NCBI GenBank assembly: GCA_964462445.1
Contig: CAYWXG010000001.1
Coordinates: 11,874 to 75,873 of the forward strand
From: an uncultured Barnesiella sp.
GTDB lineage: Bacteria; Bacteroidota; Bacteroidia; Bacteroidales; Muribaculaceae
Reading direction: 5' to 3'
Length of the DNA stretch: 64,000 nt
The notes beneath the pieces are model-generated. The model had not been told where the DNA came from. It worked only from the letters and a program-made list of their open reading frames with translations, and ran no database searches. Each line of letters opens with the position of its first letter. The first letter of the stretch is position 1. A program made the translations under genes and the position numbers. Below are positions 51,656 through 62,293 of the stretch, piece by piece.

Positions 51656-52639
51656 TTACAACACGTTGACACCTTCTTTATTGGAAATATTTTGACCATT
51701 CCCGATTGTTGTTTTTGCCGAGCGCGGGGTCATTAAATATTGCACGAAAATAATCGCAATAATTAAGATATATATCACCAAGGGTAACACCTTAAAATCG
51801 CTCGTACTGCTTATACTCTTCTCAAATTTAAGGTCGGGCACAGAGATTTTTACTGTTTGATTCTCTTTCTCAAACATATATACTCCCTCATTGTCCACTA
51901 TCACCGGAAGTTTCCCATCTTCCGACAACTCGTTTAAATAGGTTGCTATTGCCGGAGCCAATTCTCCGGGCACTTTCGACTGTAGTCCTATCGACATTAG
52001 ATCCCATCCTTTGACATCTGCCGACCATTTATTGAGCACTGAATCTACATTCTGCTTATATGTGCGATAGGGTGCAACTCCTGTCTTCCCGGTGTTGCCC
52101 AATAGCAATTGGCGTTCTTGGAGCATCCATGTCTCGATATCGGCGGGCGTTTTTATCGCTGCATCGTCAAAATATGCAGTCACATTGAGGTCCTTTTCTG
52201 AATCGATTGCCGCATGCAAGCCGGTGGTTGTGATTGCCAATGCCGACTGTTCAGCTTTTTCATATTCGCTAAACATCCCGCGCAATCTGTCAACATCGCT
52301 TACAGCCACTTTTTGCAATTCATCTTTGCTTGTCAAAACATCAACGAAATGCATCACGTAGCGTGCCGGAAATACTGCTGCCGCTAAAAACAATACGATT
52401 GCTCCGATTTCTACCTTTTTCCATCGCGCAAAATTGTTGTCAATCTTTTTGCTTTGAGTCGCAGCTTCGAGTATCAAACTCAGCACTATCACTGTCCCTA
52501 ATGCAATCCCGATTGATGCGCCCATGCTACCCGAGGTTAGCATTAGTGAGCCCATAAATGTGAAAAATCCCAGCAGAGCCAATCCTGCAAGAGCTATTAT
52601 ATTTCCTATGCCTACGCGGCTTGATTTGTCTCTTGACAT
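51656..52639 (-). CDS. Cluster gene 4: polytopic membrane protein (3 N-terminal TMs, ~190-aa loop domain, C-terminal TM)
   Basis: 327 aa. Hydrophobic segments at aa ~10-100 and ~290-310. Confidence 0.65.
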   Translation of the reverse strand: MSRDKSSRVGIGNIIALAGLALLGFFTFMGSLMLTSGSMGASIGIALGTVIVLSLILEAATQSKKIDNNFARWKKVEIGAIVLFLAAAVFPARYVMHFVDVLTSKDELQKVAVSDVDRLRGMFSEYEKAEQSALAITTTGLHAAIDSEKDLNVTAYFDDAAIKTPADIETWMLQERQLLLGNTGKTGVAPYRTYKQNVDSVLNKWSADVKGWDLMSIGLQSKVPGELAPAIATYLNELSEDGKLPVIVDNEGVYMFEKENQTVKISVPDLKFEKSISSTSDFKVLPLVIYILIIAIIFVQYLMTPRSAKTTIGNGQNISNKEGVNVL

Positions 52640-52673
52640 ATTTCGTTATTTTCTTTTGTTTCTGTTTTTATCG

Positions 52674-52705
52674 GGAGGTGGGGCCTTTTGACCTATCCCA
52701 CCTCC
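52674..52705 (-). other. Intercistronic GC-rich stem-loop between the subtilase gene and the next cluster gene
   Basis: 9-bp stem GGAGGTGGG / CCCACCTCC with a 14-nt loop, inside the 78-nt gap. It is the only GC-rich hairpin I noticed inside the cluster. Confidence 0.5.
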
Positions 52706-52717
52706 TCCTGTTTTTTA

Positions 52718-54841
52718 TTATATGTTATCGTTGCTTCTGACAAGATAATAAGAAGATCCGTCCGACGAACCGCCGTAGTACGATACACATTCAAGCATTC
52801 CGTTTGCTCCGCGTTTGCATTCTATTGTTACAGGTGAAAACGGCGTGGGGCAAGTCGGTGATGTCGCATTCCCTTGTTGACGTATTGTCAACTTATCGTT
52901 GCGCAACTCGCTTTTGAATGCTGCGCTGTGTTTACACCCGCCGTCGGTCTTGTAATAGATGGTTCCACTGTTGATTGAATTGAATTTCAGATATATGTGT
53001 GTCATCTCTCCCGTTGGTTCATTGGTCTCCGAATCTGTCACTATTCTCTCTTCGGTGGTTTTCCACAGCCCTTTGATACTGTTGGGATCCTCTTTAATTT
53101 CGTCGAACTTCGCAACATTGCCTCCGGCAGCTTCAAGAGCATCGCGCACCTGTATCAACTTCCCGATATGACCATTACGGTCAACTACCTTGCCGGTCTT
53201 GTCTAATATCTCGATAATCTCTGTATTCGTAAGATTCGGATTTACCGACTTCATCAATGCTACTGCTCCCGATACTATTGGTGCGGCCATCGATGTGCCG
53301 GGGCAGAACCCATATCCGTTGGCAGGTCCTGCACTATATATATCAACACCGGGGGCTGAAATAGTTGAGTAATTGATACCTTGTGATTCGTAATTACCAT
53401 AGTTGCTGAAATCGGCTTTCTTCAAGTCCTGTCCTACGGCACTTACTCTGATGGTGCTTTCGCCTCGCTTGGTCTCATCCATCCCCGACAATACGTTGCA
53501 ATTTCCTGCTGCCCACACTATGGTACAATTCTTTTTGTCGGCAAGTTTGAACACATAGTCCCACACATCTTCTTGGTATTTATCAACTTGGTTGATATAT
53601 TCCAGCTGTGTGTTTACCGGCAAATTTTGTGCTTCCGGGGGAAACATTTGTTGAAGCGACAAATTGATGACATCGGCACCTTGGTTGATTGCATACAGAA
53701 CACCCTCAAGCATCGCACTCGACGACATGTGTGCGCCCAACGAGATTGGCATCAATTTGCAATTTGGTGCTAATCCTGCCGCACCGACTCCATTGTTAAG
53801 CGCTCCTACGGCAAGTCCGGCTACGTGCGTCCCGTGATAGATTATTGCATCATCCGGATTGTGGAATGAATATGGTCCGGGTGGGGGCATGACATTGCGC
53901 GACCTACGTTCAACACTGAACGGCTTAACCACGCGACCCTTGAATTCCGGGTGGGTGATATCAATATAACTGTCAATAACTGCAACTACAATATCTTCAG
54001 AACCTTGCGTAATTTCCCATGCCTCATATGTTTGGATAGGTGCGAAATGCCAACTCTTCTTCTGGCTCTTAAACGCCGGGTCATTATATTTCGACCCGTT
54101 GGTTGCCGAGTTATTGAACATTACATCGTCAAACAACTTGTATTCAATATCCGTGATTTCTTGTTGGATTCGATTTTTTACATTCTCGCGTTCCGTAGGA
54201 TTAACCATGATTTGCATCAAACCGGCCTCCGGATTGTAATATTCAATGTTGACATTGTCATCGGGATACATTTGCTTGAGTTTGCGTGCAAACTTTTTGA
54301 AATTTTCCTCTGAATTGTCCTCTAATATTACGTCTATGAGAGTCCCGTCAATCTGCTTATAGGGGTCATCTTCCGGGGTTATTATATACTCGGGCTTCGG
54401 CTCTACTCTGCGATTTTCCTCAGGACTCGGCAACTCCTTGATTGGTTCTTGGAAATTATCTTCAGGTAATGGCTCATTGATAATATCCATCAATTCCTCA
54501 TCATCTTTGAACCGCTCGTCTACTATATCGCCGTTCTCATCGATATATTCCGGAATTTCAATATTAACATCATTAACATCGTCCTCATTAAGGTCATCGA
54601 TATATGTAGGATCATCAATTAAATCTATGCCTTCTTTGTTTGACTTGCTACTACTATTTTCGGGCAATGAATGTAGCCATCTCAATAGTATTAGGAATCC
54701 GAATAATAGAATTAGAAACAAGAGATAGCGCCAAATCAGTCCACCTATTGGTGCCGGTTTATCTTGATTTCCCCTTTGATTTTCTATATTAATTCGTTTC
54801 ATCTTTTTTTGTTTAAATGGTAATTGAGAGGATTTAAACAC
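52718..54841 (-). CDS. Cluster gene 3: membrane-anchored subtilisin-like (S8) serine protease
   Basis: Basic N-terminus plus TM (LIWRYLLFLILLFGFLILL), then an acidic D/E/N-rich linker. Catalytic motifs VAVIDSYID (D290, 53972-53974), HGTHVAG (H336, 53834-53836), AAGN and GTSMAAP (S517, 53291-53293). Alternative start at 54802. Confidence 0.85.
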   Translation of the reverse strand: MFKSSQLPFKQKKMKRINIENQRGNQDKPAPIGGLIWRYLLFLILLFGFLILLRWLHSLPENSSSKSNKEGIDLIDDPTYIDDLNEDDVNDVNIEIPEYIDENGDIVDERFKDDEELMDIINEPLPEDNFQEPIKELPSPEENRRVEPKPEYIITPEDDPYKQIDGTLIDVILEDNSEENFKKFARKLKQMYPDDNVNIEYYNPEAGLMQIMVNPTERENVKNRIQQEITDIEYKLFDDVMFNNSATNGSKYNDPAFKSQKKSWHFAPIQTYEAWEITQGSEDIVVAVIDSYIDITHPEFKGRVVKPFSVERRSRNVMPPPGPYSFHNPDDAIIYHGTHVAGLAVGALNNGVGAAGLAPNCKLMPISLGAHMSSSAMLEGVLYAINQGADVINLSLQQMFPPEAQNLPVNTQLEYINQVDKYQEDVWDYVFKLADKKNCTIVWAAGNCNVLSGMDETKRGESTIRVSAVGQDLKKADFSNYGNYESQGINYSTISAPGVDIYSAGPANGYGFCPGTSMAAPIVSGAVALMKSVNPNLTNTEIIEILDKTGKVVDRNGHIGKLIQVRDALEAAGGNVAKFDEIKEDPNSIKGLWKTTEERIVTDSETNEPTGEMTHIYLKFNSINSGTIYYKTDGGCKHSAAFKSELRNDKLTIRQQGNATSPTCPTPFSPVTIECKRGANGMLECVSYYGGSSDGSSYYLVRSNDNI

Positions 54842-54850
54842 GATTTTGTA

Positions 54851-57769
54851 TTACTTGATAAGGCGATCAATCAATTGCCCGATTCGTTTGTTGGCCTCAA
54901 TATCATAATCTATTATCTGACCCTTAAGCAAGAACGACACTATCATATATTCTATCCATTTGAAATAATTATCCTCAAATGCTTTTGTCACTCCGTCAGG
55001 ACGATCGATAAGTTGATTAAACATTTCGGTCAACTCCTCGGCGGTGTAGTTTTCTGCGTGATCTTGGGTGATATACTCTAACGGGTCAAATTTTATCGGA
55101 TTTTCATCAACAAGGCGATTGGCGACGTCACGTTCTTCTTCACTTCGCATGCTATAACCTAAATCGCTGATGAAATCATTGATTTTCGATGCCATCAAAT
55201 CCGCTATCAAACTGATATTGATGCCACTGATATTGATAACCTTTACATGCTCCTCGATTGTCTTATCAAGAACTTCCTCAAGATTAAGCTTGCGTGCTGT
55301 CAGTTCAATATTGTCAACTAAAGCCGACATCTCTATCGGGTCAAATGCGCCGTTATCGCACAACTTATTTATCGACTCCGGTTTCTTGATTGAGTCTTTC
55401 CATGTCTCATATACGGTCTCTGCAATTATTGTCGAATTTGTCTTGCGTTTGAAATCCCCGGCAAATAGTTTATTCGCATCAACTCCCTTTTCTGCCAAGA
55501 ATTTTTCTGCCGACTCTCTATCCGGAAGACCATAACTTACCATTACGCATTCCCATTTCATATCTGTGGTCTTGCATCGGTCAAGACGCTTGCCGATATC
55601 CTTGCGGATGATTTCATAATTGCGTGTATCATTGACCGAATCATTCATCATCGATGAGTTAACAAGGTCATAGATGCTGTTGTAAAGGGTCTTTTCAGTG
55701 GTTTGCAATTCGCGAATCATTCTTCCGAAGAAATAACTATCATTATTGCATGAGAATATCAACTCGCGACGTATTGCGCATGCTTGATTCATATCTTGCA
55801 ACAACTGTGTCGCAGCATCGTCGGCATGATAATATCCTTTGAGAATATCATGAAGTGCCTTCCCGATATTTTTTAGCGTGGTTGATGTTTGCTCTTGGCG
55901 AGCATTCTCCATATTCGACGCTGCCACTGCAAGTTGCTGGAACAAAAACAACGCGCCATCGTTATTTTGTGTCGCTGCAACATCCCATGAGCATGCTGGA
56001 TTGGCAAAAAATTTCTGCGTATACGGACTTTCGATAAACGACTGTCGCATTCTTTCGTAATACACATTATCCATTGCCGATTTTTGCTCGCATCCGGTTT
56101 CTCTAAATCCGGTGTATAGGTTGTTCCCCTTTCCGGTGTCGCCTGAATATTTATAGTCGCGGAGCAAATATGTGTTCTTAAAGGTGTCCCCTTCGGTTAT
56201 CCAATTTTGGAACCAGTCAGCGTCATTTCCATGAATCACTTCTTTGTATAGAACTACATTAAAGCGGTCGCCCCAACGCTGGTCGATAGCGTTACGCGAA
56301 TTGGCAACATCATCGGCATTAGCATCTGCCATTGTCATGTCGATGTTGAATTTTGTCGCTATCAAGAAGAATGGTGATACTCCTCCGGTCAACTTTAGAG
56401 TGCGTGCTCTGTGTTGAGAGGTCTCTCCTACATATTGCTTAATCCAATTTTCTATCGTCAGATATAACGTGTCATCATTTCGTTGCGCGTTATCGTGGCA
56501 GAACAATAATATATTGATTAACCCGCAGTCGCTATATCGATTAAACAAATATGCTACTTTACCACGAAGATACACATTGGCGTCATTCGACATTGCACTC
56601 TTGGTATCGGTCTTGTCAAGATTTTCCTCTTTGAGCTGATTGCGGGCACGTGCTCCCGGGAAGTCGAGCAAGTCGGTGTGCTTGATGATGTCTTTTTTGA
56701 ATGGCTTATTGGGCAATACGCCTCTTACCGTCGGGTCGCTTATCATCGTCATGTCATAAGTCAACTCCGAATTCAAAAAGCGTTCTTCTACCTTGAACAC
56801 CGCCTCGGCGCAGAGTGCCGACAATTCGCTCTTGTCATATCGGTCTATGACCTTGGTCCCGCCGTCAGAAGTCTTGATGATTACTTTTGTGAACGATGAT
56901 TCTTCGCTCTTGTCTTTAATATTCAACTCATTGATACGTTGCACCGACATCAATGTCTGATTTGTATTGAGTACTGCCTCTATAGGTAGATACACCTGTT
57001 TGGCATAACTTAAATTGCGCAATGCTTCGCTCAAGTGTTGGAATAATTTTGTCAATGTTGCATTGCCATGCCATAATGGTGCGAATATTTGACTCCATTC
57101 CGATGCCTCCACATTGCGGGCAATTAGTGCTACTCGCTCAAAATATGGCGAACGCATCAGAGATTGAGTGTTCCCCGACGTGCTGCGACGTAGATAATCC
57201 TTCATGTCGAGAATATCATCTTCGACTACTACCGGATTGCTCAATGGCTGAAGCTCTTTATATGTTTCATATATCTCGGTTGAGATTTTATTCAACTCAT
57301 TGTCCGAATAGCTTTGATAGTCGGTTATGTCGTTATGATATCCGTCGCAAAGTATTGATGCAATCTCACTCATGCCGAGCAATTTTATCAACACCGGATA
57401 TTCTGCGTTATAGCGGCCGGGGTCGTTGGCAAATGTTGTGAAACGTGTCACCACTCCGGTTGCCTCTACATTATTAGTTATAGGATTAATCTCCTTCACA
57501 AAATCATATTCGCGAGTGGGGGTTACCACGGAAAATGGCTTTCCGTTATCGCTAAGCATATTGGTGATAACATACGACTTCCCCTTTTGACTCTCTCCGT
57601 AGGCTGCTATCGCCGGATTTTCAGGCTCCGTAGCGGCAAGTTTGCGCAAGCGGCAGCGCTCATTCACCAATTGTAGAAAGCGCTGCTCATATTGGTCCGG
57701 CTTATTCACCTTGAGCCATGCCAACGCATCATTGATATTATTTATCTGGGCTTGTATGGAATTTTTCAT
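54851..57769 (-). CDS. Cluster gene 2: giant dynamin-like GTPase (SrfC-like by recollection)
   Basis: G1 GESQKGKS (57575-57598), G2 GVVTR (57443-57457), G3 DFPG (56654-56665) and G4-like TKFN (56345-56356). About 260 aa are inserted between G2 and G3. Start at ATG 57769, 13 nt after the upstream stop; the ORF extends to 57817. Confidence 0.75.
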   Translation of the reverse strand: MKNSIQAQINNINDALAWLKVNKPDQYEQRFLQLVNERCRLRKLAATEPENPAIAAYGESQKGKSYVITNMLSDNGKPFSVVTPTREYDFVKEINPITNNVEATGVVTRFTTFANDPGRYNAEYPVLIKLLGMSEIASILCDGYHNDITDYQSYSDNELNKISTEIYETYKELQPLSNPVVVEDDILDMKDYLRRSTSGNTQSLMRSPYFERVALIARNVEASEWSQIFAPLWHGNATLTKLFQHLSEALRNLSYAKQVYLPIEAVLNTNQTLMSVQRINELNIKDKSEESSFTKVIIKTSDGGTKVIDRYDKSELSALCAEAVFKVEERFLNSELTYDMTMISDPTVRGVLPNKPFKKDIIKHTDLLDFPGARARNQLKEENLDKTDTKSAMSNDANVYLRGKVAYLFNRYSDCGLINILLFCHDNAQRNDDTLYLTIENWIKQYVGETSQHRARTLKLTGGVSPFFLIATKFNIDMTMADANADDVANSRNAIDQRWGDRFNVVLYKEVIHGNDADWFQNWITEGDTFKNTYLLRDYKYSGDTGKGNNLYTGFRETGCEQKSAMDNVYYERMRQSFIESPYTQKFFANPACSWDVAATQNNDGALFLFQQLAVAASNMENARQEQTSTTLKNIGKALHDILKGYYHADDAATQLLQDMNQACAIRRELIFSCNNDSYFFGRMIRELQTTEKTLYNSIYDLVNSSMMNDSVNDTRNYEIIRKDIGKRLDRCKTTDMKWECVMVSYGLPDRESAEKFLAEKGVDANKLFAGDFKRKTNSTIIAETVYETWKDSIKKPESINKLCDNGAFDPIEMSALVDNIELTARKLNLEEVLDKTIEEHVKVINISGINISLIADLMASKINDFISDLGYSMRSEEERDVANRLVDENPIKFDPLEYITQDHAENYTAEELTEMFNQLIDRPDGVTKAFEDNYFKWIEYMIVSFLLKGQIIDYDIEANKRIGQLIDRLIK

Positions 57770-57782
57770 GACTGTTTTCTTT

Positions 57783-60700
57783 TTATCTGAGTGAAAGTTC
57801 AAATTCACCTTTATCAAGCCAATGCTTGCCGTCGGCTACTATCGATTGCTGTACTATCTCAATTGTGGATTTTGGAAGTGTGTTCCCTTGCATATCGGTC
57901 ACTTCCTCTATTTCCACCACCTCTCGGTCATCTTGATATGAACGTGTCAATGTGATGCGTACCGGCTCATGATTCTTCCCTGCAAAATAGATGCCGTAGA
58001 GTGGGCGTGCTTGATATAACGCCGAATCAAACTGTTTGCAACCCAAGAACACCGGGAATGAGCCAATTGTTGTCGATGCATTTGACTTGTCGGGGAACAA
58101 CAATGACTTCTTCACCAATTGTGTCGATGCATCATAGAAACCTATGAAATTGGAGGTTGGTTTCATCTGGCGTATCATCTCCTTGAAATCAATACGCAAT
58201 CCATTGAAGCCTATCGTTGATGCCATGTAGCCTACCATTGCACCCACTGCAACTACCGACTTCTGGTCATAGAAATATCCCTGACCATCGGCAAATGGAT
58301 ACCACGTGCCTACACGATAATCATTTAAACAAATAATCCTGTCGGGCGACATCGGATAATATTTGATAAACAATTCAGGTATTGCATCTATTGTTGTCGG
58401 ACGTCCGGCCATGACTAATATGTCGCACTTATATGCATAGAGCAATATCGACAATTGCTTCATCAATGGCTCCATCGTTGTGCGAACCATCGACGCTATC
58501 TCTTCCGGGTCATAGCGCCACGACAACTCCTCAAATCTAAAGCCGAAATGATTAGCGAAATGATTGAGCAAATGTTCCGACGGTTTCAAATCACCGAAAA
58601 TTTCATCATAGGTGTAGACTCGCGACGGGAATTTGCGACGTAGCAAATCCATCATCTTGCGTGCTATCGGCACCGAAATCTGTGTGTTGAAATCTACGCG
58701 CGCATGACGATCTTTAAACGACATCATTGCGCTATCATATCCAAAGAAATCGCGTAGCAACACTGATGCAAAGTATCGTGTACGCTCCTCTCTGCGTTCC
58801 GGTGACTGACAACCGATAATATCCTCTACGTAGGTGCGATACACGTCGGTATACTTCGCTTTGGTGCATGGCAACAATCGCAACTCTTCATCGCTCATTG
58901 ATATCAAGCGGGCGAGCAATGCACTATGTATGCTTCCCATAAACGCGATTCCGGTCTCTGGCCCTTCTATTACATAGCGTTGTACGATTGTGCGCAATAT
59001 ATCATCTCCTGCTACATAGAAGCTATCATAGAAATGGGGCACAGGAACTATCGAACTTTGCTCCTCTCCCTCATATTTGTAGGAACATATCATGATGTCG
59101 GTTGTCCCGGCACCTATATCGATTGACCCTATTGTCAAAGAGTTGTGTTCATATCCATCTTCAATGAATTCTTTCCTGCGGTGTCCCTTCGCTTCAAAGA
59201 ATTGATCGATTTTGCCATTGTAGCGTTGTGCTATCTCTGCATAGAGATATACAAGCTGGCACGCTGAGGCCTCGTCATAGCTCCATTGGCGCTTATCAAG
59301 CATATCATAATCGTCGGTATTCTTCAACGCTTCCGGTGAGGGTATCACAGTTATAGGCGTTAGTGAGGGATTGCAACGCAACATTGCCTTCTGTGCATCT
59401 ACCATGCTTTGGCGCAATGTAATCTGTTCGGCACGTGGCATTGCCGTAGGGCATGTAATTACTACGTTGCGCAATCTACGGCGACAATCTATTTTCCCAT
59501 GCTTTGTTCTGAACTTCGGCGAGTTGATTTGGGCGATAGCCTGTTGTAACACTTCTACCATAACAAATGTCATCATCGACGAACGTGAATAATGACAATC
59601 AGTGTCGGTTTCTTCTGGCATCATATCAAAGATATTCACCGTGTCGGCTTTCTCTTTAAAGGTGCCTCGTTCATCAAACATATCGGTGAAATTCTGCAAG
59701 AAGATATTAGGCGATTGTCTGACATTGAACGGGTCGGTATCGGTGATGAGATATTCCCATCTCGCTTGAGATTTTTTCTTATCCCACAAATATCGTTTGG
59801 GCGATGAATAACTGTTGGCTCGTTCGGCAATTCCGCTATCTTCTATCGAATGATACACCAATAAGCGTGCTTCTTCTCCCACGCGTACAATGCTCTTCCA
59901 ATTAAATGCCTCCTCCGGCAATATCAAGTCGTTGCCAAAATCCGCACGACGATACACTAATCGCATATCAAACGGATTCTTGTATGTAATCCATGGTGAG
60001 GTGAGGTTGCGCAACTCAAGCATTACTGAGCGCGTGAAATCTCCATCTTCAAACAATACACCACATGTGCGCGAATTGCCGATATCAAGTACCATATCTA
60101 CATTCACATCACCATCATTCGGATTATATAGAGTGACATTGGGTGATACTCCGCTCAATCGCAAGAAGTTGATTAGATAAATATAGTATGCTATAAATTT
60201 ATATCGGTGGTGCACCAACTTTTCCGGGTCTACACCCAACAGCGATGCAACATATTGCGATATAGCGTCTTGGTCCTCTTGGACTGATAGAAAATTAAAC
60301 AGCAAATCCGGCTTATTGCATAAAGCAAATGTCTTTTTTCGCTCTGACTCATCAAAGAAATAGGGGAAATAGATCGACAACGGATTTTCTGCCAAATGAG
60401 TGTCAAATGCCCATGTAAAACTATATTTCGACGACCCTTTGACACTCCCTTCTCCTACGCGACGTATTCGTACTCTACACCATCCCATCGGAACTCCTGT
60501 GGTTGTGCCAGTTGCATCTGTCTCAAACATCGGCATTGGCAACCATTTATCCAACAGCAATTCAAATGCCGGCAATTTATCTATCGGATTTGCCGGATTT
60601 TTTATGCGGTAGCTCTCAAAGGTGTTGATATTGATTATTGAATCATCTTCATCGCCATACGACTCCAATAATTCCGTCGATACATCATCGCGCATTTTGG

Positions 60701-60971
60701 GTACTCCGGTCTCATCAAGTTCCTCACTTCCGTTTTGATGTAATGAGATATAGCCTTCGCTGCGAAGCTGCTTCACCGGTATCCAACAATTCTTATCTAT
60801 GTGATTGAATAGCAAATCAAAACTGATATGACCGTCAAAAGGATCGACTGTCTCAACAAATGAATACCGTAACATTCTTCCACTTGGGAGTGCAAACGGC
60901 TCCGACGAGTTAAATTCAAGTTCATTGGTCGTAAACTGAATGCCGGTATCAGTAATAAGGTGTAGGTCCAT
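57783..60971 (-). CDS. Cluster gene 1: giant actin/Hsp70-fold (ASKHA) ATPase-like protein (SrfB-like by recollection)
   Basis: 1062 aa with phosphate-1-like MVLDIGNSRTCG (60063-60089) and phosphate-2-like SIDIGAGTTD (59097-59120), plus VMAGRPT near the C-terminus. Confidence 0.75.
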   Translation of the reverse strand: MDLHLITDTGIQFTTNELEFNSSEPFALPSGRMLRYSFVETVDPFDGHISFDLLFNHIDKNCWIPVKQLRSEGYISLHQNGSEELDETGVPKMRDDVSTELLESYGDEDDSIININTFESYRIKNPANPIDKLPAFELLLDKWLPMPMFETDATGTTTGVPMGWCRVRIRRVGEGSVKGSSKYSFTWAFDTHLAENPLSIYFPYFFDESERKKTFALCNKPDLLFNFLSVQEDQDAISQYVASLLGVDPEKLVHHRYKFIAYYIYLINFLRLSGVSPNVTLYNPNDGDVNVDMVLDIGNSRTCGVLFEDGDFTRSVMLELRNLTSPWITYKNPFDMRLVYRRADFGNDLILPEEAFNWKSIVRVGEEARLLVYHSIEDSGIAERANSYSSPKRYLWDKKKSQARWEYLITDTDPFNVRQSPNIFLQNFTDMFDERGTFKEKADTVNIFDMMPEETDTDCHYSRSSMMTFVMVEVLQQAIAQINSPKFRTKHGKIDCRRRLRNVVITCPTAMPRAEQITLRQSMVDAQKAMLRCNPSLTPITVIPSPEALKNTDDYDMLDKRQWSYDEASACQLVYLYAEIAQRYNGKIDQFFEAKGHRRKEFIEDGYEHNSLTIGSIDIGAGTTDIMICSYKYEGEEQSSIVPVPHFYDSFYVAGDDILRTIVQRYVIEGPETGIAFMGSIHSALLARLISMSDEELRLLPCTKAKYTDVYRTYVEDIIGCQSPERREERTRYFASVLLRDFFGYDSAMMSFKDRHARVDFNTQISVPIARKMMDLLRRKFPSRVYTYDEIFGDLKPSEHLLNHFANHFGFRFEELSWRYDPEEIASMVRTTMEPLMKQLSILLYAYKCDILVMAGRPTTIDAIPELFIKYYPMSPDRIICLNDYRVGTWYPFADGQGYFYDQKSVVAVGAMVGYMASTIGFNGLRIDFKEMIRQMKPTSNFIGFYDASTQLVKKSLLFPDKSNASTTIGSFPVFLGCKQFDSALYQARPLYGIYFAGKNHEPVRITLTRSYQDDREVVEIEEVTDMQGNTLPKSTIEIVQQSIVADGKHWLDKGEFELSLR

Positions 60972-61421: not shown

Positions 61422-61979
61422 TTATTGCTTTATTTTGACGGATTTGGGTAATGAGGTATTCTTACATCCTACAATCAGAGTATTTGATTTAGTCTCAATT
61501 ATTGCGTTGCAATTATTTCGAGAATCATAAATTTTATTCTGAGGATCTATAATTATCGTTGATAATCCGGGACAATCATGAAATGCGAATCTGCCAATTT
61601 TAGTTACTGATTTGGGTATCTGAACTTTTGGCAGGTTGGCACAATCGCTAAAGGCATATTTCCCTATACATGTTATAGTATTTGGGATTGTTACTTTCTT
61701 TAATTCAACACATGAGGAGAATGCGCTCTCTCCAATTGATATTACTTTATAGGTTGTGCCCGCATAATTTACTGAGGTTGGGATAGTGACGTTGCCGGTG
61801 TATTCATTAGAATAGGTAAGTGAGTTCTCCCCTTTATATGTGATTTCGACGGTTTTGTTGTTGAATGATAGTTTCCTATAATAGATTCCTGCAACTTCAA
61901 TATCGTGAGCGAAAGCATGATTGATACCGACAAGTATCATTATAATAATTATCCAAGATTGGCAACTACGGCATTTCAT
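61422..61979 (-). CDS. Small BspA-type leucine-rich-repeat (LRR_5/TpLRR-like) secreted protein
   Basis: Signal peptide from ATG 61979 (MKCRSCQSWIIIIMILVGINHAFA). Repeats IGESAFSSC..LKKVTIP / IGKYAFSDC..LPKVQIP / IGRFAFHDC..L. The ORF extends to a TTG at 62009. Confidence 0.7.
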   Translation of the reverse strand: MKCRSCQSWIIIIMILVGINHAFAHDIEVAGIYYRKLSFNNKTVEITYKGENSLTYSNEYTGNVTIPTSVNYAGTTYKVISIGESAFSSCVELKKVTIPNTITCIGKYAFSDCANLPKVQIPKSVTKIGRFAFHDCPGLSTIIIDPQNKIYDSRNNCNAIIETKSNTLIVGCKNTSLPKSVKIKQ

Positions 61980-62293
61980 AATAAAATGTTTGTATTTTTC
62001 TATCCCCAAATATAATAAATCCTCAACACGTAAAGAAAAATATGTCGCGAAAAAAACGCAATATATATCATAAAATAATTATAGATGGTGCCGTGGCTTT
62101 AAATAGTCAAAACTCTTTGCCGGTGGAATTCGAAAATTGTTTTTCTCTGCTCAAATTGTTTTTGATGTATTATGTTGTTTGAAATTTTATTATTTTTTGG
62201 TCTATTTTTCTGACATTTTGCCATATCTTGCGCGAATATTTAGAATAATGGAAATTTTTCTTTAAGTTATATCTGTTTTACAATAAAAATTAC

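What the first reader, a model, noticed from the sequence alone, without database searches (positions are those of the whole stretch)
54851..57769. Giant dynamin-like GTPase with a ~260-aa insertion between switch I and switch II
The motif set closely mirrors dynamin-superfamily G1-G4. It comprises GESQKGKSYVITNML (G1), EATGVVTRF (G2, compare dynamin GIVTR), LLDFPGAR (G3, compare DLPG) and IATKFNID (G4, TKxD-like with N for D). G2 and G3 are about 260 residues apart, which would be an unusually large insertion in the G domain. About 480 further residues follow. The start codon lies 13 nt after the stop of the ASKHA gene, implying co-translation.
Basis: partly seen in the sequence, partly recalled or inferred. 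Interest (0 to 1): 0.75.

Follow-up and report, generated by a model that had tools for sequence, protein, structure and literature searches.

The report
SrfC-family dynamin-like NTPase, Bacteroidales operon
The gene encodes a member of the widespread but biochemically uncharacterised SrfC "putative virulence factor" family; its predicted fold is dynamin-like, a 230-residue extra domain sits inside the nucleotide-binding domain, and it lies in a conserved membrane-associated operon of gut Bacteroidales.

Summary
The minus-strand ORF 54851-57769 encodes 972 aa and carries all four quoted motifs. Its ATG lies 13 nt after the stop of the upstream gene.

- **Family.** It is a clear member of Pfam PF10139 (Virul_Fac/SrfC, E 1e-104). 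The upstream gene is SrfB (PF07520).
- **Motif conservation.** G1 (GxSQxGKS), G2 (ExTxxxTR) and G3 (DxPG) are essentially invariant in 101 homologues from Bacteroidota and Proteobacteria.
- **Fold.** An AlphaFold2 model (pLDDT 85) finds only dynamin-superfamily proteins at the top of a PDB fold search (SynDLP E 1.4e-6, IniA, Campylobacter DLP, mitofusins). No sequence profile detects Dynamin_N.
- **Insertion.** The G2-G3 spacing is 225-287 aa in every homologue examined. The insert folds alone with confidence (pLDDT 91) and has no known structural analogue.
- **G4 motif.** It is T-x-F-D in Proteobacteria but T-x-F-N in every Bacteroidota homologue, so GTP specificity is unproven.
- **Operon.** SrfB-SrfC-S8 peptidase-second GTPase is conserved in 76-78 of 81 Bacteroidota loci. 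The SrfA-C module is fused to the S8 peptidase, and the 373-aa protein probably carries SrfA-N.

Verdict: a known family and a new operon variant. I found no published dynamin-like assignment for this family. Moderate interest.

The parts
54851..57769 (-). SrfC-family (PF10139) dynamin-like NTPase gene, 972 aa plus stop
   Evidence: Pfam E 1.1e-104; AF2 pLDDT 85.1, pTM 0.79; Foldseek top hits all dynamin superfamily
57632..57769 (-). Two long N-terminal helices (residues 2-46) preceding the G domain, as in BDLP/mitofusin neck regions
   Evidence: DSSP of the model
57575..57598 (-). G1 / P-loop GESQKGKS (residues 58-65)
   Evidence: G58, S60, Q61, G63, K64 and S65 invariant in 101 sequences
57443..57466 (-). 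G2 / switch I EATGVVTR (residues 102-109)
   Evidence: E102 and R109 invariant. T104 is 73/74 in Bacteroidota and 27/27 in Proteobacteria. T108 is T or S in 74/74
56690..57376 (-). Inserted two-lobed domain (residues 132-360): a seven-helix bundle (133-252) plus an alpha/beta lobe (258-351), between beta2 and the G3 strand
   Evidence: folds alone, pLDDT 91.3, pTM 0.82; no structural analogue: best E 0.41 in PDB, 0.15 in BFVD; covered by positions 124-320 of the PF10139 profile; spacing 225-287 in all homologues
56654..56674 (-). G3 / switch II DLLDFPG (residues 366-372)
   Evidence: D369, F370, P371 and G372 invariant across both phyla
56339..56356 (-). G4-equivalent TKFNID (residues 472-477). 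Asn replaces the base-specificity Asp
   Evidence: N475 is 74/74, and T-x-[FI]-N is found in 82/82 Bacteroidota loci. Proteobacterial SrfC have T-[MK]-[FL]-D in 27/27
56156..56167 (-). G5-position LLRD (residues 535-538) after strand 532-535. R537 is invariant
   Evidence: Assignment as G5 is inferred from its position in the fold
54854..55957 (-). C-terminal all-helical region (residues 605-972), stalk/trunk-like. No transmembrane-like segment
57783..60971 (-). SrfB (PF07520), 1062 aa. Carries ASKHA-type phosphate motifs DIGNSRT (296-302) and DIGAGTTD (618-625). First gene of the operon
   Evidence: Adjacent to SrfC in 77/81 loci
52718..54841 (-). Membrane-anchored S8 peptidase whose C-terminal domain (residues 588-693) is homologous to the SrfA C-terminal lipocalin-like domain
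   Evidence: (hhalign probability 92.7%, E 4e-7). Present in 78/81 loci
51656..52639 (-). 327-aa polytopic membrane protein of the operon
   Evidence: Detected in 32/81 loci
49869..51584 (-). 571-aa soluble protein with a second P-loop GTPase domain (GIPSSGKT 299-306, canonical TKAD 473-476)
   Evidence: Present in 76/81 loci
45249..49833 (-). Four further operon genes: a 530-aa bitopic protein, a 296-aa N-anchored protein, a 298-aa secreted protein and a 373-aa tail-anchored protein. The N-terminus of the last resembles SrfA-N
   Evidence: p373 residues 14-132 against SrfA 14-147, hhalign probability 64%, E 6.6e-5

Best explanation
The gene encodes a cytoplasmic SrfC-family protein that belongs structurally to the dynamin superfamily. 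Its layout is two N-terminal helices, a P-loop G domain and a roughly 370-residue helical stalk-like region.

The G domain is split between switch I and switch II by a family-specific, autonomously folding domain of about 230 residues.

SrfC is made from one transcript with SrfB, an ASKHA-type ATPase by its motifs. I propose that it works at the inner face of the cytoplasmic membrane. There, SrfB and SrfC would dock on an SrfA-type platform. In this Bacteroidota version, that platform is split between a tail-anchored protein (SrfA-N-like) and a membrane-anchored periplasmic S8 peptidase (SrfA transmembrane segment plus SrfA-C-like domain).

Nucleotide binding and hydrolysis by SrfC would drive dimerisation and conformational change, as in other dynamin-like proteins. 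This would remodel the membrane or gate the envelope-spanning complex. The inserted domain, wedged next to both switch regions, is the likely site where partner binding is coupled to the nucleotide state.

Shown: family membership, motif conservation, predicted fold, the insertion, operon conservation, and homology of the SrfA-C module.

Inferred: membrane action, docking on the platform, the role of the insertion, and the nucleotide used.
For: - **Family.** Pfam PF10139 E 1.1e-104, with SrfB upstream at E 7e-172.
- **Motifs.** G1-G3 are invariant in 101 sequences from two phyla at about 21-66% identity.
- **Generic GTPase signal.** 10 of 51 family members also match the MMR_HSR1 GTPase profile, best E 1.2e-5.
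- **Fold.** AF2 model pLDDT 85.1, pTM 0.79. The ten best Foldseek PDB hits are all dynamin-superfamily proteins: SynDLP 7zw6 (E 1.4e-6, probability 1.0), IniA 6j72 (1.8e-3), Campylobacter DLP 5oxf/5owv, CmDnm1, dynamin, Fzo1, MFN2 and MFN1.
- **Motif flavour.** The V-T-R and D-x-P-G strings resemble dynamin. Xenorhabdus SrfC has TKLD.
- **Insertion.** G2-G3 spacing is 225-287 in 74 homologues and about 233 in proteobacterial SrfC. It is covered by the PF10139 profile and folds alone with pLDDT 91.3.
- **Localisation.** SrfB, SrfC and p571 have no transmembrane-like segment. Six other operon proteins have transmembrane or signal segments.
- **Operon.** The order SrfB-SrfC-S8-(p327)-p571 is kept in 76-78 of 81 loci from Bacteroidales to Chitinophagales, Flavobacteriales and Sphingobacteriales. 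The median SrfB-SrfC gap is about 19 nt.
- **SrfA modules.** The SrfA-C module is found in the S8 protein (hhalign 92.7-93.7%). An SrfA-N-like module is found in p373 (probability 64%, E 6.6e-5).
- **Published model.** A preprint reports an AlphaFold3 model in which SrfA is a bitopic membrane platform that binds SrfB and then SrfC (bioRxiv 10.64898/2026.09.18.752743).
- **Precedent.** Bacterial dynamin-like proteins act on membranes: IniA in fission (PMC6715688), IniA/IniC in vesicle release (PMC10240201), DynA in phage defence (PMC12998192).
Against: - No sequence profile links the protein to Dynamin_N, even with the insertion deleted. PDB sequence searches also find nothing.
- Foldseek TM-scores for the full-length model are low (0.16-0.18). 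The match rests on local 3Di similarity in a multi-domain protein.
- I could not inspect model coordinates. Convergence of the motifs on one pocket is therefore not verified.
- G4 lacks the specificity Asp and a conserved Lys in this clade.
- No hydrophobic paddle or transmembrane segment is present for direct membrane binding.
- No experiment on any SrfC addresses nucleotide hydrolysis. The published phenotypes are cytotoxicity of SrfABC lysates (PMC6950479) and reduced swarming in Salmonella (PMC4219756).
Confidence: 0.6

Rival explanations
1. SrfC is the NTPase switch of a conflict or anti-phage system. A nucleotide-gated sensor complex (SrfB, SrfC and the second GTPase) would activate a periplasmic S8 protease effector. 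In this reading it is not a membrane-remodelling machine.
For: - The operon sits in variable contexts with no conserved upstream neighbour.
- About 10% of the 133 upstream flanking genes are integrases or match defence-type models: SMC_N 5, PtuA 3, AbiLi 2, mad3 4, PDC-S05 1.
- On Runella plasmid pSP2_1 the operon directly follows BREX pglZ/brxL and a restriction endonuclease.
- In L001 an AAA_15/AAA_21 ATPase lies downstream.
- Some members of the second-GTPase family match the DO-GTPase1/2 families weakly (E about 2e-3).
- DynA, a bacterial dynamin-like protein, contributes to phage defence (PMC12998192).
Against: - No operon protein matches a PADLOC defence model beyond a generic subtilase hit.
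- In the window the flanks are housekeeping genes: aminotransferase, 5'-nucleotidase and an ArgR-like gene.
- Relatives are found in at least 553 genomes of a one-genome-per-species collection, which is broad for an accessory defence system.
- The enrichment estimate is rough and has no control.
Confidence: 0.2
2. In the Bacteroidota clade the protein is not a GTPase. The invariant Asp-to-Asn change in G4 would have shifted it to another nucleotide (ATP or xanthine/other nucleotides), or made it a nucleotide-binding pseudoenzyme.
For: - N475 is invariant in 74/74 and 82/82 Bacteroidota sequences. All 27 proteobacterial SrfC keep Asp.
- K473 is variable: K 41, W 17, M 8, F 7.
- Textbook knowledge: the engineered D-to-N change in NKxD of Ras and EF-Tu switches specificity from GTP to XTP, and YchF/OLA1, with altered G4 motifs, uses ATP.
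Against: - G1, G2 and G3, including the catalytic-site residues, remain invariant. This argues for an active hydrolase rather than a pseudoenzyme.
- A nearby acidic residue (D477, D/E in 64 of 74) and invariant R537 could still read a guanine base.
- No biochemical data exist.
Confidence: 0.25
3. It is a subunit of a secreted toxin or a type III effector, as the database names suggest ('virulence factor SrfC', 'T3SS effector HopL1', 'SrfABC toxin'). It would act inside host cells.
For: - Source annotations on homologues use these names.
- Lysates of E. coli co-expressing Xenorhabdus SrfABC are cytotoxic to insect and mammalian cells (PMC6950479).
Against: - The protein has no signal peptide or transmembrane segment.
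- The family is abundant in gut-commensal and environmental Bacteroidota, a phylum in which, to my knowledge, type III secretion has not been described.
- The operon encodes inner-membrane-anchored partners.
- The preprint states that Salmonella SrfABC is neither co-expressed with SPI-2 nor translocated by the T3SS.
Confidence: 0.05

Closest known systems
SrfC of the proteobacterial srfABC operon (Pfam PF10139 Virul_Fac; Salmonella, Xenorhabdus, Enterobacter pENTE01)
   Same: - Full-length homology: Pfam E 1e-104, and tblastn 21.6% identity over 87% of the query to Enterobacter sp. 638 SrfC.
- Same G1, G2 and G3 strings and the same ~233-aa G2-G3 insertion.
- Same position immediately downstream of SrfB.
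   Different: - G4 is T-x-F-N instead of T-[MK]-[FL]-D.
- There is no single srfA gene. SrfA modules are distributed over an S8 peptidase and a tail-anchored protein.
- Accessory genes differ: S8 peptidase, second GTPase and membrane proteins here, against vWA proteins, a Lol-like ABC transporter and SUMF1 in Proteobacteria.
Bacterial dynamin-like proteins and mitofusins (SynDLP 7zw6, IniA 6j72, Campylobacter DLP1/2 5oxf, MFN1/2, Fzo1)
   Same: - Best structural matches of the AF2 model.
- N-terminal helices, G domain and a long helical region.
- P-loop GxxxxGKS, a switch I Thr and D-x-P-G.
   Different: - No sequence-profile similarity.
- A ~230-residue domain of unknown fold is inserted between switch I and switch II. 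From memory, the corresponding spacing in dynamin and mitofusin is about 70 residues.
- The G4 Asp is replaced by Asn.
- No hydrophobic membrane paddle.
- It is paired with an ASKHA-type protein rather than a second dynamin-like protein. BDLP genes are usually paired with each other (PMC6104087).
LeoABC of enterotoxigenic E. coli and IniA/IniC of mycobacteria (dynamin-like proteins tied to vesicle release)
   Same: Operon-encoded large NTPases first labelled virulence or drug-tolerance factors, acting at the cell envelope (PMC10240201; LeoA from my own knowledge).
   Different: No detectable sequence relationship. Their partners are further dynamin-like proteins, not SrfB. No protease or SrfA-type modules are present.

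Membership tests
SrfC / Pfam PF10139 (Virul_Fac) | Match to the family profile above the gathering threshold | tested here: met
   351.9 bits against a cut-off of 28.1, E 1.1e-104. 51 of 51 aligned relatives also match
SrfC / Pfam PF10139 (Virul_Fac) | Encoded immediately downstream of SrfB (PF07520) | tested here: met
   SrfB at 57783-60971(-), 13-nt gap. The same arrangement is seen in 77/81 loci and in pENTE01
Canonical srfABC operon | A single srfA gene (N-terminal domain, transmembrane segment, lipocalin-like C-terminal domain) upstream of srfB | tested here: not met
   450 bp of non-coding DNA and an LRR_5 gene lie upstream. No upstream gene is conserved in 49 loci. SrfA-C and the transmembrane region are found in the S8 protein, and an SrfA-N-like region in p373
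Dynamin superfamily (DLP/BDLP) | G1 P-loop GxxxxGK[ST] | tested here: met
   GESQKGKS, with six positions invariant in 101 sequences
Dynamin superfamily (DLP/BDLP) | G2 switch I threonine and G3 DxxG | tested here: met
   T104 is 100/101. T108 is T or S in all. D369-F-P-G372 is invariant. Which Thr binds Mg2+ could not be decided without coordinates
Dynamin superfamily (DLP/BDLP) | G4 [N/T]KxD with a base-specifying Asp | tested here: not met
   The motif is T472-K-F-N475. Asn is invariant in the Bacteroidota clade and the Lys is variable. Proteobacterial relatives do have T-x-[FL]-D
Dynamin superfamily (DLP/BDLP) | Sequence-profile match to Dynamin_N (PF00350) | tested here: not met
   No hit for the intact protein, for the G core with the insertion deleted, or for any of 51 relatives. 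Only the generic MMR_HSR1 profile matches, in 10/51, and RsgA_GTPase in 4/51
Dynamin superfamily (DLP/BDLP) | Architecture of G domain plus helical neck/BSE and stalk/trunk (PMC10104851) | tested here: met
   AF2 secondary structure. The Foldseek top ten are all dynamin-superfamily chains, best E 1.4e-6. This rests on a predicted, not solved, structure, and TM-scores are low
Dynamin superfamily (DLP/BDLP) | Membrane-interaction domain (paddle, PH domain or transmembrane segment) | tested here: inconclusive
   No 19-residue window reaches Kyte-Doolittle 1.6 (maximum 1.45 at residue 842). Amphipathic or partner-mediated binding cannot be excluded
Dynamin superfamily (DLP/BDLP) | GTP hydrolysis stimulated by G-domain dimerisation or oligomerisation; membrane remodelling | not testable with these tools
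   Requires biochemistry
Type III effector / secreted toxin subunit (HopL1, SrfABC toxin) | Secretion signal and a cognate secretion system in the host genome | not tested
   No cleavable signal or transmembrane segment. The 64-kb window cannot show the presence or absence of secretion systems

The most novel reading that the evidence does not exclude
SrfB and SrfC would together form a previously unrecognised class of prokaryotic machine: an actin/Hsp70-fold ATPase coupled to a dynamin-fold NTPase. The NTPase's G domain carries a unique regulatory domain between its two switches. The pair docks on SrfA-type membrane modules. In Bacteroidota the system would be rewired to a periplasmic S8 protease and a second GTPase, and the natural G4 Asp-to-Asn change would give SrfC a nucleotide specificity other than GTP.
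Probability: 0.3. Interest if true: 0.75.

Novelty: new variant of a known kind. Interest (0 to 1): 0.5.

Why it matters
- **Naming.** SrfB and SrfC are annotated in thousands of genomes as 'virulence factors' or 'T3SS effectors' with no biochemical function. The family is common in gut-commensal and environmental Bacteroidota (relatives in at least 553 genomes of a one-genome-per-species collection), so that name looks misleading.
- **Testable hypothesis.** A dynamin-like NTPase working with an ASKHA ATPase at the membrane can be tested directly.
- **A handle on regulation.** The inserted domain and the natural G4 Asp/Asn split between phyla give clean mutational and specificity experiments.
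- **A unifying view.** Finding SrfA modules fused to a periplasmic protease links the two operon types and points to an envelope-spanning function, such as vesiculation, envelope maintenance or conflict.

Tried and rejected
- **PDB sequence search, single protein:** nothing.
- **PDB sequence search, 74-sequence profile:** only spurious hits to nanobody frameworks and designed helical repeats.
- **Pfam on the G core with the insertion deleted, and on the insertion alone:** only PF10139.
- **NCBIfam:** no family for SrfB or SrfC.
- **PADLOC:** no defence model for SrfB, SrfC or p571.
- **Foldseek of the isolated insertion:** no significant match in PDB (best E 0.41, Csm2-like helical bundles, probability at most 0.2) or BFVD (best E 0.15).
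- **hhalign of the second-GTPase family against SrfC:** only the P-loop aligns (probability 0.4%), so they are not paralogues.
- **SrfB profile against PDB sequences:** no hit. Its ASKHA nature rests on motifs read by eye.
- **Literature:** searches for SrfC with dynamin or GTPase, for PF10139, for SrfB with ASKHA, and for HopL1 found no paper assigning a fold or enzymatic activity.
- **Conserved upstream gene:** none across 49 loci.
- **Other accessory genes:** hhalign of the remaining Bacteroidota accessory families against the Enterobacter accessory proteins (vWA, ABC, FtsX, SUMF1, hypotheticals) found nothing meaningful.
- **Longer TTG start at 57817:** rejected, because it overlaps srfB and homologues start at M1.
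Full report
**Observation.** The finding's coordinates hold a minus-strand ORF. Translating 54851-57769(-) gives 972 residues and a stop. The four quoted strings sit at residues 58 (GESQKGKS), 102 (EATGVVTRF), 367 (LLDFPGAR) and 470 (IATKFNID). T108 and D369 are 261 residues apart. The upstream ORF (57783-60971, minus) ends in TAA, 13 nt follow, and then comes ATG 57769. A longer TTG-initiated version overlaps the upstream gene. Homologues do not support it, because their M1 aligns with this ATG.

**Identity.** Pfam assigns the protein to PF10139 (Virul_Fac, the SrfC family) at E 1.1e-104. It assigns the upstream protein to PF07520 (SrfB) at E 7e-172. NCBIfam and PADLOC have no model for either.
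- The family is large. There are 1938 hits at 90% clustering and 981 clusters at 50% identity with E ≤ 1e-3.
- Most of the listed homologues are full-length proteins of about 910-1020 residues that align end to end.
- The closest relatives (98-83% identity) come from uncultured Bacteroidales, Barnesiella and Muribaculaceae. The window is therefore from a gut Bacteroidales bacterium.

**Motif conservation.** I examined 74 homologues at 25-66% identity.
- G1 (G58, S60, Q61, G63, K64, S65) is invariant.
- In G2, E102 and R109 are invariant, T104 is 73/74, and T108 is T or S throughout.
- In G3, D366, D369, P371 and G372 are invariant.
- Twenty-seven diverse proteobacterial SrfC at about 21% identity keep GLSQAGKS and EATGLVTR. 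All 27 keep L-D-F-P-G, while the first Asp of D-L-L-D is E or N in four of them.
- After adding these sequences, the invariant (≥97%) positions across both phyla include those of G1 and G3 (apart from D366), plus E102, T104, R109, T472 and R537.

**G4 motif.** G4 behaves differently. Proteobacteria have T-[MK]-[FL]-D in 27/27, and Xenorhabdus has TKLD. Every Bacteroidota-type sequence has T-x-[FI]-N (74/74 in the alignment, 82/82 in genomic loci). The Lys is variable. The base-specifying Asp is thus systematically Asn in this clade. In Ras and EF-Tu the engineered D-to-N change switches specificity to XTP (textbook knowledge). GTP specificity should therefore not be assumed.

**Fold.** An AlphaFold2 model built on 32 sequences has mean pLDDT 85.1 and pTM 0.79.
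- Its order of elements is: two long N-terminal helices; strand 53-58 and the P-loop; strand 107-111 after switch I; strand 126-130; a seven-helix bundle (133-252); an alpha/beta lobe (258-351); strand 366-369 leading into DFPG; the remaining Ras-like elements up to about 560; and an all-helical region from 605 to 972.
- Foldseek against the PDB returns only dynamin-superfamily chains in the first ten places. These are SynDLP 7zw6 (E 1.4e-6, probability 1.0), IniA 6j72 (1.8e-3), Campylobacter DLP 5oxf/5owv, CmDnm1, human dynamin, Fzo1, MFN2 and MFN1.
- TM-scores are low (0.16-0.18), as expected for flexible multi-domain proteins. I could not inspect coordinates, so the geometry of the pocket is unverified.
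- Sequence profiles do not see Dynamin_N, even with the insertion removed or across 51 relatives. Ten of the 51 match the generic GTPase family MMR_HSR1 (best E 1.2e-5) and four match RsgA_GTPase.
- The protein is therefore a TRAFAC-type P-loop NTPase by sequence and dynamin-like by predicted structure and motif flavour. It is not a sequence-level member of the Pfam dynamin family.

**The insertion.**
- The spacing from the switch I Thr to the G3 Asp is 225-287 (median 238) in 74 homologues, 227-278 in 78 genomic loci, and about 233 in proteobacterial SrfC.
- Positions 124-320 of the PF10139 profile cover it. It is therefore ancestral to the family, not a peculiarity of this gene.
- Predicted alone (residues 125-365), it folds with pLDDT 91.3 and pTM 0.82 into the same helical bundle plus alpha/beta lobe.
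- It has no significant structural match in the PDB (best E 0.41) or BFVD (best E 0.15).
- Y192, W233 and E322 inside it are invariant across both phyla.
- Its position between the two switch elements suggests that it couples the nucleotide state to a partner. That is inference.

**Context.** The gene is second in a nine-gene minus-strand operon (45249-60971):
- SrfB
- SrfC
- a membrane-anchored S8 peptidase
- a polytopic 327-aa membrane protein
- a soluble 571-aa protein with a second, canonical GTPase domain (GIPSSGKT and TKAD)
- four further membrane or secreted proteins

SrfB, SrfC and the 571-aa protein have no transmembrane-like segment. The six others do.

In these 80 loci plus L001 (81 in all), SrfB is adjacent in 77, the S8 peptidase in 78 and the second GTPase in 76. 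These loci include Niastella, Flavobacterium, Sphingobacterium and Gelidibacter. Gene gaps are short, with a median SrfB-SrfC gap of about 19 nt.

SrfB carries DIGNSRT and DIGAGTTD, the phosphate-1 and phosphate-2 signatures of the ASKHA fold. A profile search of PDB sequences found nothing.

**Link to the canonical srfABC operon.** The proteobacterial operon on Enterobacter pENTE01 reads vWA-SrfA-SrfB-SrfC-hyp-vWA-ABC-FtsX-SUMF1. The window has no srfA upstream, and no upstream gene is conserved across 49 loci. Profile-profile comparison gives three results.
- The SrfA C-terminal lipocalin-like domain is homologous to the C-terminal domain of the S8 protein (probability 92.7-93.7%, E 4e-7 to 2e-7).
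- The transmembrane and juxtamembrane 'LLRxC' region also matches (probability 95%, but only 26 hydrophobic columns, so this needs caution).
- The N-terminal 130 residues of the tail-anchored 373-aa protein match SrfA-N (probability 64%, E 6.6e-5). The seven other operon families outside the S8 protein score E above 0.07.

A 2026 preprint describes SrfA as a bitopic membrane platform. It has a degenerate kinase-like N-domain that binds SrfB and then SrfC in an AlphaFold3 model. The preprint argues against T3SS secretion (bioRxiv 10.64898/2026.09.18.752743). The Bacteroidota operon thus appears to be the same core system with SrfA split and fused to a periplasmic protease. No other accessory gene is shared.

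**Mechanism.** My preferred reading has confidence about 0.6 for the whole. It is much higher for identity and fold, and lower for the mode of action.
- SrfC is a cytoplasmic dynamin-fold NTPase that acts with SrfB at the inner face of the membrane on SrfA-type anchors.
- Nucleotide-driven dimerisation and stalk movement either remodel the membrane or gate the envelope complex.
- The precedents are bacterial dynamin-like proteins: IniA in fission (PMC6715688), IniA/IniC in vesicle release (PMC10240201), DLP pairs in tethering (PMC6104087), and DynA in phage defence (PMC12998192).

Rival readings:
- **A conflict or defence system with a protease effector (0.2).** Some flanks carry integrases and defence-type genes, and a Runella plasmid places the operon next to BREX. 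PADLOC finds nothing, however, and the window's flanks are housekeeping genes.
- **An NTPase that no longer uses GTP (0.25).** This is compatible with either of the above.
- **A secreted toxin or effector subunit (0.05).** This rests on names and on lysate cytotoxicity (PMC6950479).

**Novelty and score.** The gene belongs to a known, named family, so it is not categorically new.

I could not find the following in the searchable literature:
- the dynamin-like fold of SrfC
- the characterisation of its inserted domain
- the phylum-specific G4 Asp/Asn split
- the Bacteroidota operon variant with SrfA modules on a protease

I rate it a new variant of a known kind, interest 0.5. It is a well-supported and testable functional hypothesis for a widespread, mis-named family. 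It rests on predictions only, and the mechanism is unresolved.

Noticed in passing
window 49869-51584 (-): A 571-aa soluble protein with a second P-loop GTPase domain. It has Walker A GIPSSGKT (299-306), conserved T348, G378-E379 and a canonical TKAD (473-476). It is conserved in 76/81 Bacteroidota loci. Pfam hits to DO-GTPase1/2 are only marginal, and it is unrelated to SrfC beyond the P-loop.
   Followed up: partly
window 52718-54841 (-), C-terminal domain at 52763-53080: The S8 subtilase has an N-terminal transmembrane anchor and a four-cysteine C-terminal domain homologous to the SrfA C-terminal lipocalin-like domain (hhalign 93%). The true start is probably the ATG at 54802, since M14 is nearly invariant in homologues.
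   Followed up: yes
window 45249-46370 (-): A 373-aa tail-anchored protein. Residues 14-132 resemble the SrfA N-terminal kinase-like domain (hhalign probability 64%, E 6.6e-5). A Pro-rich linker and a weak MG4-like beta-sandwich follow.
   Followed up: partly
window 57783-60971 (-): SrfB carries ASKHA-type phosphate motifs DIGNSRT (296-302) and DIGAGTTD (618-625), both invariant in 24 homologues. A family profile nevertheless finds no PDB sequence.
   Followed up: partly
L083 (Runella sp. SP2 plasmid pSP2_1) 1-9962: The SrfB-SrfC-S8 operon lies directly downstream of a restriction endonuclease and BREX pglZ/brxL. In L001 an AAA_15/AAA_21/SMC_N ATPase follows the operon. This hints at a defence-island context but does not prove one.
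   Followed up: partly
window 56339-56356 (-) and homologues: A phylum-level split at the G4 specificity residue. It is Asp in all 27 proteobacterial SrfC examined and Asn in all 74 + 82 Bacteroidota sequences. A compensating D/E lies two residues downstream, where Proteobacteria have Arg.
   Followed up: yes
window 61422-62009 (-): A small BspA-type leucine-rich-repeat (LRR_5) protein with a signal-like N-terminus lies just upstream of the operon promoter region. A related LRR protein was detected upstream in only 2 of the 81 loci (L004 and L053).
   Followed up: no
SrfC residues 86-139 (window about 57353-57514): The family profile produces spurious PDB hits to camelid nanobody frameworks through the string 'RFTxSxD...L.P.D'. 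This is a caution for automated annotation.
   Followed up: no
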